A stretch of DNA of 64,000 nt from Mytilus californianus. Taxonomy: Eukaryota. The position numbers were made by a program. Numbering within the stretch: the stretch's first letter is position 1; the number at the start of each line of letters is the position of its first letter. Below, one piece after another: positions 51,601 to 54,600 of this stretch. The stretch lies in the NCBI RefSeq assembly GCF_021869535.1, contig NW_026262745.1, positions 85,808,001 to 85,872,000 of the forward strand, read 5' to 3'.

Positions 51601-54600
51601 TGATGTTTTTGGAAATCTGAGACATGGTTTTGAAGATAACTGGTCAAGTAACAACATATGTGAAAATCAGGCATATGGGGGCACCCATCTAGGAGCTAAT
51701 TTCATTTAAAACTACATTTTCATGACAAAAATGAATGTGTCACAATTGAATAAATAAGGATTTTCCTACTTGTACCCCATTAACTTCGATATAATTCAAA
51801 CATGTACCATGCTTCAGGATTGGCCTTTAATCAAAAATCAATTAGGTTTTGACCAGTAAGAAAGCATTCCATGTGAGCAATTCTAAATATATAAAGAAAA
51901 TGCTCACCCTATGCATCAAAAATCAGATCTGGCGGGAGATGTTATATCATTATTGACCTAGCTGTAAGTCAATTGCTACTGATATGGTCAAAACTCCGGC
52001 CACCATGATAAACTTTGACTATTAATGATCTCAGAAGTTTAATTACACATTGCATTTATTTTTTTTTCAAAATGGATTTTATTCTTTTAGTATATAAAAT
52101 AATATATTTTGATTTTTGCTTTGTTACAAAAAGTAAGTTATGCATGTGTACACAAAATGATTAGTTGGTCAGTCTAGAGGATCCTTATGGGGGATTTCTA
52201 GAATTACAATTGTATACAATGAAAATATGGTGTTTTACACAAAGTAGATTTTTTTCTTTTTTGCAGTTTGAAAATGAAATATTTAATTTGTATTTTCCTT
52301 TAAAAAAGAATTCATATTTAAACATTCTCCTCAGGAAATTCTAGTATAAACATCAGCAACATTAATTGTTGTACAATTATCTTTTTTTAATATCTGTACA
52401 TTTATATTTTGATTCCCTCTATATCTTCAAATAGTGTTTTTTTTTCTCCTGGCAGCTCAAATATAGAAATGTATTTTTATTTGGAATTCATTATCTTCAT
52501 TTTTCCATAAATCCCTAATCCACCTCTTTTTTCATAACTGTTATTTTTATTGCTGGTCAGTGGTCATAAAGCTACCAAATGATTCTATTGATAAACCACA
52601 TGTTCTTATCTTGTATCAGTCAGACACCTGCATTTGTTTATAAAACTAATTATCATCAAAACTCATTAACAGTGCAAGATATGTAAATAAATTTTTCTTC
52701 AGTGGTTTTGGAATATTAAGAAGTAACAAAAACAGCTGAAAATGAAATTTTGATAAAATTTAGTTGCTTTTGTATTGTGCTACCTTAACTACTGATATTT
52801 ACTACATGCATTTTATCTTATACTTTGTAGGTTATATGGATAGTTACATTTATATCAGTGGTAGTGTTCTATGTAGACATTGGATTGTGGGTAGGAATTG
52901 GCTTTTCTTTTGTAACAGTTGTCGTCAGGACCCAGGTGTAAGTTTGTGCTAATATAATTGATTGTATGGATTTGTACATTCTCTAAAATCTTTTTTTTTT
53001 AATATTTACATCTTGCATGTTGTCTATTATTAAAAATTTACAAAATTTATCAATTTTCTGATTTAAATTGCTTGAAACTCACTAAATCTGCAAAACCGCT
53101 TTAAATTTCAAATGGAATACATTGTTATAAAACTGTCTCCATTATTTAAAAAGTCATAATAAGAAAAATGGTTGACCGATGTGTCGTCAAATGGATGTCA
53201 CGAAAACAACCATACACAAGTCAATCATTCGATTACTTCGAACCCCCCACACAGTGTTTATCGTATGGAAACTGAACTGTTTTTTTAAATCAGTGCGAAT
53301 CTTGCATTTCACAAATTCCCGACAGTATAAGTTACAAATGTAAGAAAAAAGAAATAATCATTGATATAAATATGACTCATGTCTGCTATACAAGCTGTTT
53401 TTGAAATCGTAAAAAGTGAGATCAAATTTGCAGTACAAAAGAATAGCCTTAACATTTAGTTAAAGACATTATCCTAATTGTTGCATATATATTAAATACA
53501 GGATTTATTTTTCAGTGCTAAGGCCAGGATATTAAAGAAAATCGATCCTGTTAATGCATTTGCAGATGAATCTAAATATATTAAGGTACATATATAATTG
53601 TAATGGTATTTAGTTATGAAACGGAAATTTTGAAGAACTTAAGACAGTTTTTTTTTAACAGAAAAAAATAATGGGGGACACAGTCTTTCTCGTAGATAAA
53701 AACCCCATTTTCAGTTCTGACATGAAGTGTCACCGATCATATGATTTCCTCCGACAACTTTATTTTAAACCTAAAAATATGGTACAAGAATACAGAAATG
53801 TAGAAAATACCAAATAACAGTATTTGAATGGGGTAGAGTTTCAATGTAGAAAAGTACAACAAAAATATCGAACTCCAAGGTAAATTCAAAAAGGGGGAAT
53901 TCCATAAAAACTGACAAAATCAAACCTTATCAACCGACTACTTTCCAATATATTCTCTTGGGTTTAGCAACCATTTGATGGGACTTCTCTATGGTAGTCA
54001 GTAACCCATTCACCTCCTGCTCCATGGTATGATAAGGAACCCGTACAACAATTGGTCACATGATAAATTAAATCGACTTCCAATTATCTCAGAAAACTTC
54101 AATAAAACATAAGTTCAAATGAAAGTAAAGTTGAACAGTCTGGATATTCCCAAATATAATATATAGCAGCACCATAATTGTCATCATCATGAAACGAACA
54201 ACTGTATAACTTAATTTCATTTAACTTACAGACTCGTCATCATGATAAGCACATTTGTATAACTTAATTTCATTTAATTTACAGACTCGTCATCATGATA
54301 CGCACATTTGTACAACTTAATTTCATTTAACTTACAGACTTATTATGATGAAACGAACACATGTATAACTTGATTTGATTTAATTCACAGACTCGTGGAT
54401 TCTCGGGAATAAGGATTGTTGGTTTCAACGCGCCACTGTATTTTGCTAACGGCGATCTTTTCCTCCGACAAGTGTATACCTTATCCGATACCAAACCAGA
54501 ACGTGTAAGGAAACAAATAAAAAGGCTTGGATCCATATCGGAATTCAGAAGACAGGTATGAAAGTAAACTTTCTTAAAAAGATGTTTTAAAACGTGTTAA

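What the first reader, a model, noticed from the sequence alone, without database searches (positions are those of the whole stretch)
54184..54396. Second, independent acceptor array at exon 13 of the same gene
Seen in sequence: an unrelated 53-bp unit is repeated with exact periodicity (AG at 54231, 54284, 54337, 54390). It again spans the pyrimidine tract, CAG and the first exon bases (ACTCGT or ACT). All three decoys reach a stop at codon 12. Two separate arrays of near-equal unit size, both anchored on acceptors in one gene, suggest a process or selective regime focused on intron 3' ends (inference).
Basis: partly seen in the sequence, partly recalled or inferred. Interest (0 to 1): 0.65.

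Follow-up and report, generated by a model that had tools for sequence, protein, structure and literature searches.

The report
Tandem decoy splice acceptors before exon
A 53-base piece covering the end of an intron and the first bases of the next exon of a bivalve anion-transporter gene has been copied four times in a row, a kind of repeat already described in amphioxus, so it is real but not a new kind of thing.

Summary
Tandem Repeats Finder reports 54184-54396, period 53, 4.0 copies, 85% matches, no indels. Each copy ends in ACAG + ACT, with the G of AG at 54231, 54284, 54337 and 54390.

The host is a + strand SLC26/SulP anion-transporter gene of 17 coding exons, most similar to bivalve "prestin-like" proteins. 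The last AG is the acceptor of coding exon 13 (54391-54555). Two database proteins read ...KYIK|TRGFSG across this junction. Each of the three upstream copies would give a stop at codon 12.

A second, unrelated 56-bp array (44310-44752) likewise ends on the exon 8 acceptor.

The best reading is a "mirage"-type minisatellite: a local tandem duplication of an intron-exon boundary. These are described in amphioxus Adh3, globin, TnC and PGBD5 genes (PMC3087553, PMC3902484). A donor-side analogue is the human F7 IVS7 VNTR (PMC1557585).

The decoys are not degraded. They score higher than the true site on the gene's own acceptor matrix. Choice of the last copy therefore probably depends on position and exon context, which is an inference.

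Whether a process targets intron 3' ends cannot be settled from one gene. It is a new member of a known kind, of moderate interest.

The parts
37846..59143 (+). Host gene, coding part: SLC26/SulP-type anion transporter with 17 coding exons, all introns GT-AG
   Evidence: tblastn of P0001 and P0002; junction search; P0001 has Pfam Sulfate_transp at residues 102-509 and STAS at 560-744; nearest named relatives are bivalve 'prestin-like'/SLC26 proteins at 56-59% identity
53516..53585 (+). Coding exon 12; donor AAG|gtacat after 53585; the exon ends on a codon boundary
   Evidence: exon lengths up to exon 12 sum to 1686 = 3 x 562
53586..54390 (+). Intron 12 (805 nt); the array fills its last 207 nt
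54184..54236 (+). Copy 1: decoy acceptor, AG at 54230-54231, followed by ACTCGT
54237..54289 (+). Copy 2: decoy acceptor, AG at 54283-54284, followed by ACTCGT; extra AG at 54248-54249
54290..54342 (+). Copy 3: decoy acceptor, AG at 54336-54337, followed by ACTTAT
54343..54395 (+). Copy 4: authentic acceptor, AG at 54389-54390, plus the first 5 bases of exon 13; the most diverged copy
54391..54555 (+). Coding exon 13 (165 nt, TRGFSGIRIVGFNAPLYFANGD...), the start of the STAS domain
   Evidence: the K|T junction is conserved in 28 aligned mollusc proteins
44310..44752 (+). The other boundary-spanning array: 56-bp unit, 7.8 copies, each ending ...TAG|GAATTCATTGC...; the last copy is the exon 8 acceptor (exon 8 = 44738-44851)

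Best explanation
This is a 'mirage'-type intronic minisatellite. A 53-bp segment was duplicated in tandem on the spot. The segment holds the whole 3' splice-site module of intron 12 (branch-like motifs, pyrimidine-rich tract, CAG) plus the first 5-6 coding bases of exon 13. Further rounds of slippage or unequal exchange then raised it to four copies. Only the copy contiguous with the exon, the last one, gives a productive mRNA. The three upstream copies sit inside the intron as intact decoy acceptors. If one were used, it would add 53, 106 or 159 nt and a stop at codon 12, and such transcripts should be removed by nonsense-mediated decay. The decoys are not weaker in sequence than the true site. 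I therefore infer that the last copy is chosen by position: it lies next to the exon's own enhancer sequences and closest to the downstream donor (exon definition). The array itself is most likely neutral or slightly costly, not a device. Shown here: the array, its register, the exon boundary, the local origin of the unit, and the intactness of the decoys. Inferred: the duplication mechanism, the silence or decay of decoy products, and the basis of site choice.
For: The array and its register are real.

The last AG is the used acceptor. P0001 (98% identical over exon 13, from a 3789-nt contig that is far shorter than the 21-kb gene and so is presumably a transcript) and P0002 both read KYIK|TRGFSG. 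The only junction that fits the protein is GT-AG 53585/54391.

The unit is of local origin. It carries ACTCG(T), the codons for Thr-Arg. The Thr after the junction is present in nearly all of the 28 aligned mollusc proteins. No other copy of either unit is found in the 64-kb window.

Each unit has its own branch-like motifs at -22 (UAAC core, absent in copy 3) and -17 (yUnAy, all four copies) from its AG.

The decoys are intact. Pyrimidines at -23..-4 are 13/20 in each decoy against 12/20 in the true site. On a matrix built from the gene's 14 other acceptors the decoys score 6.6-7.1 bits, the 97th-98th percentile of 861 intronic AGs, and the true site scores -0.1 bits, the 82nd percentile.

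The inner copies 2-3 are the most alike (48/53) and the boundary copy 4 is the most diverged (40-45/53). Ebner et al. report the same pattern for amphioxus mirages (PMC3087553, passages).

[quoted passage not shown] A donor-side analogue with silent but functional pseudo-sites is PMC1557585 (abstract).
Against: No transcript reads from this genome were available, so silence of the decoys is not shown. P0001 and P0002 come from unnamed sources, and it is unknown whether those individuals carry the array.

The true site scores below all 14 leave-one-out scores of the other acceptors, whose lowest is 0.6. That makes exclusive use of it less obvious than the explanation assumes. The matrix rests on only 14 sites.

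Two of three arrays landing on acceptors is unlikely under random placement (0.17%). A purely neutral, untargeted origin does not explain this.

The search for other copies of the unit covered only this window, not the genome.
Confidence: 0.7

Rival explanations
1. The array is a regulatory decoy array. It is kept by selection to divert a share of transcripts into unproductive splicing (stop at codon 12, then decay), or to concentrate U2AF/U2 near a weak true acceptor. Either way it would tune transporter expression.
For: All three decoys keep the CAG, the tract and the branch-like motifs, and they outscore the true site. A second array of the same design sits in the same gene. As RNA, each decoy module folds into a hairpin of -13.4 to -14.4 kcal/mol with z of -3.3 to -4.4 and 0 of 200 shuffles as stable. 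The window round the true acceptor gives -7.1 kcal/mol and z +1.0.
Against: At about 85% copy identity, keeping three AG dinucleotides is expected by chance in roughly 0.85^6 = 0.38 of cases (my arithmetic). The three hairpins are copies of one structure, so they are not independent. In local folding the decoy AGs lie at the 27th-64th percentile of 828 intronic AGs, and 13 of 16 true acceptors have P(AG unpaired) of 0.33 or less, so accessibility does not separate used from unused sites. The whole 291-nt region folds no better than shuffles (z -1.06). No truncated isoform of about 573 aa appeared among the 120 listed relatives of P0001; that is a weak test.
Confidence: 0.12
2. The array was brought in by a mobile element. 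Bivalve genomes hold many short satellite-like arrays carried by Helentron-type elements. One could have landed at the intron end and supplied the present acceptor.
For: The window is rich in dispersed repeats (48 non-tandem self-matches). One of these lies at 53850-53924 in the same intron. Short dispersed satellite-like arrays on Helentrons are reported for the Pacific oyster (PMC7492417; title and start of abstract only).
Against: The unit contains the first coding bases of exon 13, and in the other array the first 15 bases of exon 8. Both encode residues conserved in relatives. No other copy of either unit exists in the window; only chance matches of 13-18 nt were found. The dispersed repeat at 53850-53924 ends 260 bp before the array.
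Confidence: 0.05
3. The array is an assembly artefact: a mis-joined or inflated repeat, or two haplotypes stacked in tandem.
For: Ebner et al. note that one amphioxus mirage was aberrantly assembled in the draft genome (PMC3087553, supplementary-file legend seen).
Against: The copies differ from each other at 5 to 13 of 53 positions in exact register with no indels. That is not what a stutter of identical reads gives. The window holds no N.
Confidence: 0.03
4. A mutational process tied to intron 3' ends, for example slippage or repair coupled to transcription or splicing, makes such arrays preferentially at acceptors.
For: Two of the gene's three arrays with period of 20 or more cover an acceptor; the random-placement probability is 0.17%. 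The junction-duplicate census gives 2 of 16 acceptors and 0 of 16 donors.
Against: The test is post hoc and on one gene. The acceptor-versus-donor contrast is not significant (Fisher p about 0.48, my arithmetic). Amphioxus mirages occur at both 5' and 3' boundaries (PMC3087553; PMC3902484). DNA hairpins of the unit are not significant (z -2.3, -1.2, 0.06).
Confidence: 0.1

Closest known systems
'Mirage' minisatellites of amphioxus (Adh3, globins BflGb6 and BflGb9, TnC, PGBD5)
   Same: Both are tandem, minisatellite-sized duplications whose unit spans an intron-exon boundary and carries the splice signal. The authentic boundary lies at the edge of the array. Normal mRNA is still made. Inner copies are more alike than edge copies. 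Several such arrays can lie in one gene. BflGb6 is the same case: 3' end of an intron plus the 5' part of the next exon. Sources: PMC3087553, passages; PMC3902484, one passage. The founding paper, Canestro et al. 2002 in Nucleic Acids Res, was not held and is known to me only through these citations.
   Different: The host is a bivalve mollusc, not a cephalochordate. My searches found no such report for molluscs. Only 5-6 exon bases are in the unit, so no exon-like piece is duplicated and the intron-gain model drawn for the globins does not apply. Length polymorphism and somatic instability could not be tested.
Human F7 intron 7 37-bp VNTR spanning the exon 7 donor
   Same: It is a minisatellite whose edge element spans an exon-intron boundary. 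[quoted passage not shown] Choice goes by position, not strength (PMC1557585, abstract).
   Different: It lies on the donor side, with the authentic site first. Here it is the acceptor side, with the authentic site last. The 5'-to-3' scanning rule shown there cannot simply be carried over.
Intron change by internal tandem repeats or tandem duplication (human segmental-duplication genes; Rogers-type intron gain)
   Same: A tandem repeat at an exon-intron boundary creates extra splice signals (PMC2812944, passages; PMC3265369 and PMC4974935, search listing only).
   Different: No new intron or exon is made here. The array lies inside an old intron whose position fits a junction residue shared across molluscs.
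NAGNAG and other tandem acceptors (recalled, no call)
   Same: Several AGs compete for one exon.
   Different: Those are 3 nt apart and share one tract and one branch point. Here the AGs are 53 nt apart, each with its own tract and branch-like motifs.

Membership tests
Mirage minisatellite (tandem duplication of an intron-exon boundary) | Head-to-tail repeats of minisatellite unit size (10-160 bp in the published cases) | tested here: met
   Period 53, 4.0 copies, no indels; published unit sizes from PMC3087553
Mirage minisatellite (tandem duplication of an intron-exon boundary) | The unit spans the boundary: intron end with splice signal plus exon bases | tested here: met
   Each unit ends ...ACAG|ACTCG; the boundary at 54390/54391 is fixed by P0001 and P0002
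Mirage minisatellite (tandem duplication of an intron-exon boundary) | The exon part of the unit is genuine coding sequence of the host gene (local origin) | tested here: met
   ACT CGT encodes Thr-Arg; the Thr is shared by nearly all of 28 aligned mollusc proteins; no other copy in the window
Mirage minisatellite (tandem duplication of an intron-exon boundary) | Regular splicing is not disturbed | tested here: inconclusive
   P0001 and P0002 show the regular junction, but they are unnamed database proteins, not reads from this genome. No read data were at hand.
Mirage minisatellite (tandem duplication of an intron-exon boundary) | Inner copies homogenised, edge copies left out | tested here: met
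   Copies 2-3 share 48/53; copy 4 shares 40-45/53 with the others. With only four copies this is weak.
Mirage minisatellite (tandem duplication of an intron-exon boundary) | Copy-number instability between haplotypes or tissues | not testable with these tools
   Only one sequence of the locus is available
F7-type VNTR of pseudo 5' splice sites | The array starts at a donor, with the authentic site most upstream | tested here: not met
   The array ends at an acceptor. 0 of 16 donors have a junction duplicate (best 20/30, control 99th percentile 22/30).
Helentron-borne satellite-like arrays of bivalves | The same unit is dispersed at many loci within a mobile element | tested here: not met
   No second copy in the 64-kb window.
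NAGNAG tandem acceptors | Competing AGs 3 nt apart | tested here: not met
   The spacing is 53 nt
SLC26/SulP anion transporter (host gene) | Sulfate_transp membrane domain followed by a STAS domain | tested here: met
   P0001: PF00916 E 1.6e-121 and PF01740 E 1.2e-12. All 17 exons map to the window at 92-100% identity per exon. Exon 13 alone gave no Pfam hit.

The most novel reading that the evidence does not exclude
Boundary-spanning 'mirage' arrays are not an amphioxus oddity. On this reading they are the product of a mutational process coupled to splice sites, and here to intron 3' ends, that acts in highly polymorphic marine invertebrates of distant phyla. The spliceosome tolerates them because each decoy module is folded away in a hairpin closed by the palindromic unit starts, while the true acceptor has lost that pairing through substitutions at unit columns 18, 19 and 44.
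Probability: 0.08. Interest if true: 0.7.

Novelty: new member of a known kind. Interest (0 to 1): 0.38.

Why it matters
Four complete, near-identical 3' splice-site modules in a row, with the weakest-scoring one being the only productive choice, form a natural experiment on how acceptors are chosen: by position and exon context or by motif strength. It is the acceptor-side counterpart of the F7 donor array that was used to argue for scanning. Finding the amphioxus 'mirage' architecture twice in one bivalve gene suggests the phenomenon is wider than cephalochordates. There is also a practical point. Such arrays can mislead gene predictors and splice-aware aligners, and they may be length-polymorphic markers lying directly on splice sites.

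Tried and rejected
**Searches that could not be made**
- Exon 12 alone as a protein query: 23 aa, below the 40-aa minimum, and not resent. The 'near' search with the stored protein P0001 covers lengths of 430-1371 aa. It listed no close relative of about 573 aa; only P0001 and P0002 are 80% identical or more. This is a weak test, because decayed transcripts rarely reach protein sets.
- Canestro et al. 2002: not held. Supplementary files of PMC3087553 (alignments and trees of mirage copies) are closed, so I could not compare copy patterns in detail.
- The genome-contig collection holds only bacteria and archaea, so it was not scanned. No eukaryotic genome or read set was available. Orthologous introns, genome-wide enrichment and junction reads therefore stay unchecked.

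**Structure masking of the decoys**
- The single-module hairpins look strong.
- The 291-nt region is not unusual (z -1.06).
- Local accessibility does not separate true from unused AGs, either in this gene or in the exon 8 array.
- I reject it as an explanation and keep it only as a note.

**Other ideas rejected**
- Slipped DNA hairpins as the driver of expansion: not significant.
- Known RNA families: 0 Rfam matches in the whole window.
- Dispersed copies of either unit: none in the window.
- Mollusc reports of boundary-spanning arrays: none found (0 papers; only the two amphioxus papers; none of the 15 listed held 'exon-intron boundary' or 'cryptic splice site').

- The exons were not joined into a full coding sequence or protein for any search. 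Exon 13 was searched alone.

Full report
**1. The observation**

The stretch 54184-54396 is a clean tandem array. Tandem Repeats Finder gives period 53, 4.0 copies, 85% matches, no indels and score 293. Laid in register, the copies start at 54184, 54237, 54290 and 54343. They share 40 to 48 of 53 positions with each other. The 53 bases on either side match the consensus at 15 and 10 positions, which is background level.

Every copy ends ...ACAG followed by ACT. The G of the AG falls at 54231, 54284, 54337 and 54390. One more AG, at 54249, lies inside copy 2.

**2. The host gene and the exon boundary**

The translation of 54391-54555, searched on its own, found two proteins of 783 and 792 residues (P0001 and P0002). 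They are 98% and 91% identical over the exon, and both carry the Sulfate_transp and STAS domains. Both come from unnamed sources. P0001 sits on a contig of 3789 nt, far shorter than the gene, so it is presumably a transcript.

tblastn of these proteins against the window maps 17 coding exons on the + strand between 37846 and 59143. A search for GT/AG pairs that fit the protein gives one solution per junction, all GT-AG. Exon 12 is 53516-53585, intron 12 is 805 nt and exon 13 is 54391-54555. Exon 12 ends on a codon boundary.

Both proteins read ...KYIK|TRGFSGIRIVGF, so the productive acceptor is the last AG of the array. The nearest named relatives are bivalve 'prestin-like'/SLC26 proteins from oysters, pearl oyster and scallops at 56-59% identity. 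The window is therefore from a bivalve whose own proteins are not among the named ones.

**3. What the unit contains**

The unit runs from 48 nt upstream of the splice point to 5 nt (6 counting the shared T) into the exon. It holds:
- a UAAC core 22 nt before the AG (missing in copy 3);
- a yUnAy match 17 nt before the AG;
- a T-rich tract;
- the CAG;
- ACTCG, the start of the Thr-Arg codons.

In an alignment of 28 mollusc relatives the residue after the junction is Thr in nearly all. The exon part of the unit is therefore old coding sequence, and the copies were made from the junction, not brought in from elsewhere. Neither this unit nor the 56-bp unit of the other array has another copy in the window.

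**4. The decoys are intact**

- Read from any of the three upstream AGs, the frame gives 11 residues and a stop at codon 12. This stop sits at the same unit position each time, so it is one inherited feature.
- Pyrimidines at -23..-4 number 13 of 20 in each decoy and 12 of 20 in the true site.
- A log-odds matrix built from the gene's 14 other acceptors scores the decoys at 6.6, 7.1 and 6.6 bits. That is the 97th-98th percentile of 861 intronic AGs and close to the median leave-one-out score (6.1) of the true sites.
- The true exon 13 acceptor scores -0.1 bits. That is the 82nd percentile and is below all 14 leave-one-out scores.
- The matrix rests on few sites. Still, nothing suggests that the decoys have decayed or that the true site wins on motif strength.

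**5. The second array and the question of chance**

The array at 44310-44752 (56 bp, 7.8 copies) has units ending ...TTCTAG|GAATTCATTGCATAT. Its last copy is the acceptor of exon 8 at 44738. It carries about 15 exon bases per unit, and the two units are unrelated.

The coding span of the gene holds three arrays with period of 20 or more. The third, 45028-45581, lies inside intron 8, away from splice sites. In 200,000 random placements that allowed at most 20 nt of exon overlap, two or more arrays covered an acceptor AG in 0.17% of trials. The donor figure was about the same.

A census with 30-base junction probes found duplicates for 2 of 16 acceptors (29/30 and 27/30 matches) and 0 of 16 donors (best 20/30). 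The 99th percentile of 2000 control probes was 22/30.

The coincidence with splice sites is thus unlikely under free placement. But the test is post hoc on a gene chosen for this feature. The acceptor-donor contrast (2/16 against 0/16) is far from significant.

**6. What is known**

The literature search turned up the name for this architecture. Ebner et al. [quoted passage not shown] They report:
- normal splicing by RT-PCR;
- concerted evolution of inner units;
- exclusion of edge units from that homogenisation.

They cite Canestro et al. 2002 for the term and for Adh3 units of 10-72 bp. I could not read that paper. The PGBD5 paper (PMC3902484, one passage) adds 60- and 108-bp repeats over 5' and 3' splice sites. 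It says the Adh and TnC mirages duplicate splice sites without aberrant mRNAs.

On the donor side, the human F7 intron 7 37-bp VNTR starts on the exon 7 boundary. It gives a row of identical pseudo-donors that are functional but silent (PMC1557585, abstract).

The array here meets the features of a mirage that I could test: unit size, boundary span, local origin, and edge copy most diverged. Regular splicing is only indirectly supported, and instability is untestable. My searches found no report of such arrays in molluscs.

**7. How it most likely works**

I take the array to be the product of local tandem duplication followed by slippage or unequal exchange. The left flank reads TCAT and the unit-to-unit joint reads TCGT. 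This is a possible microhomology of 2-3 bases; I read it from the sequence and it is not more than chance would allow.

Productive mRNA needs the last copy. Because the decoys are as good as or better than the true site in motif terms, I infer that the choice rests on position next to the exon. That means exon definition through the exon's own sequences and the donor 165 nt downstream. Any decoy use would be cleared by decay, since four introns lie downstream of the stop. These last steps are inference.

**8. A lead that did not hold**

The unit starts carry the palindrome ATCATGAT. As RNA, each decoy module folds into a hairpin closed by two successive unit starts, with the CAG paired to UUG/CUG upstream:
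- energies of -13.5, -13.4 and -14.4 kcal/mol;
- z of -3.3, -3.6 and -4.4;
- 0 of 200 shuffles as stable.

The window round the true acceptor gives -7.1 kcal/mol and z +1.0. Three of the substitutions special to copy 4 (columns 18, 19 and 44) break that pairing.

Against this:
- The three hairpins are copies of one structure.
- The 291-nt region as a whole is ordinary (z -1.06).
- In sliding-window folding the decoy AGs are no less accessible than typical intronic AGs (27th-64th percentile of 828).
- Most true acceptors of the gene are themselves predicted to be paired.
- The exon 8 array shows no such contrast.
- As DNA, the hairpins are not significant.

I therefore do not rest the explanation on structure.

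**9. Rivals**

- A selected decoy array that tunes expression is possible but has no positive evidence beyond the intactness of the decoys. That intactness is expected by chance at this divergence.
- A mobile-element origin is made unlikely by the coding bases inside both units and by the lack of other copies in the window. It needs a genome-wide check.
- An assembly artefact is unlikely, given 5-13 differences between copies in perfect register.
- A process aimed at intron 3' ends is not excluded and not shown.

**10. Verdict**

The feature is real and correctly described. It is a new member, in a new phylum, of a known kind of repeat. The wider claim of a 3'-end-focused process needs genome-wide counts and read data that these tools cannot supply.

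Noticed in passing
window 44310-44752: A 56-bp array of 7.8 copies, each ending TAG|GAATTCATTGC. It ends on the acceptor of exon 8 (44738). The six upstream TAG|GA sites score from -4.2 to 7.8 bits on the gene's acceptor matrix, and the true one scores 7.8.
   Followed up: partly
window 45028-45581: A 33-bp array of 17 copies in intron 8, 177 nt after the exon 8 donor. It is open in several frames on both strands (186-aa ORF with repeated HDPHQSLVCEQ) and is not at a splice site.
   Followed up: no
window 37139-37626: A 44-bp array of 11 copies (94% matches) ending about 220 nt upstream of the start codon at 37846. 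It lies in the promoter, the 5' UTR or a 5' intron.
   Followed up: no
window 59152-59440: A 149-bp unit repeated 1.9 times, starting 9 nt after the stop codon of the last exon, so presumably in the 3' UTR.
   Followed up: no
window 54239-54246, 54292-54299 and the unit starts generally: Palindrome ATCATGAT at the start of the units. Single decoy modules fold as RNA hairpins with z of -3.3 to -4.4, and the true acceptor window does not. The accessibility control does not support masking.
   Followed up: yes
window 1879-2185, 9690-10027, 13689-13928, 23163-23496, 36228-36539, 41195-41311: A dispersed repeat of about 300 bp at 80-93% identity on both strands. The copy at 41195-41311 lies in intron 3 of the transporter gene. 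It is probably a short non-autonomous mobile element and was not classified.
   Followed up: no
window 11879-12168, 18156-18439, 24285-24545, 49353-49637: A second dispersed repeat family of about 280 bp at 70-83% identity, with one copy in intron 10. Short pieces lie at 39103-39157 and 42802-42848.
   Followed up: no
window 391-810, minus strand: A 140-aa open frame containing AIDFGTTFSGYAF. From memory this recalls the N-terminus of HSP70-12-type proteins, which are expanded in bivalves. Pfam gave no hit at E of 0.01 or better, so another gene may begin at the window's left end.
   Followed up: partly
window 53850-53924: A 75-bp piece of a dispersed repeat, 83% identical to 6061-6138, in intron 12 about 260 bp upstream of the array and not part of it. 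The repeat at 6059-6260 also matches 45807-46003, which in turn matches 59650-59812.
   Followed up: no
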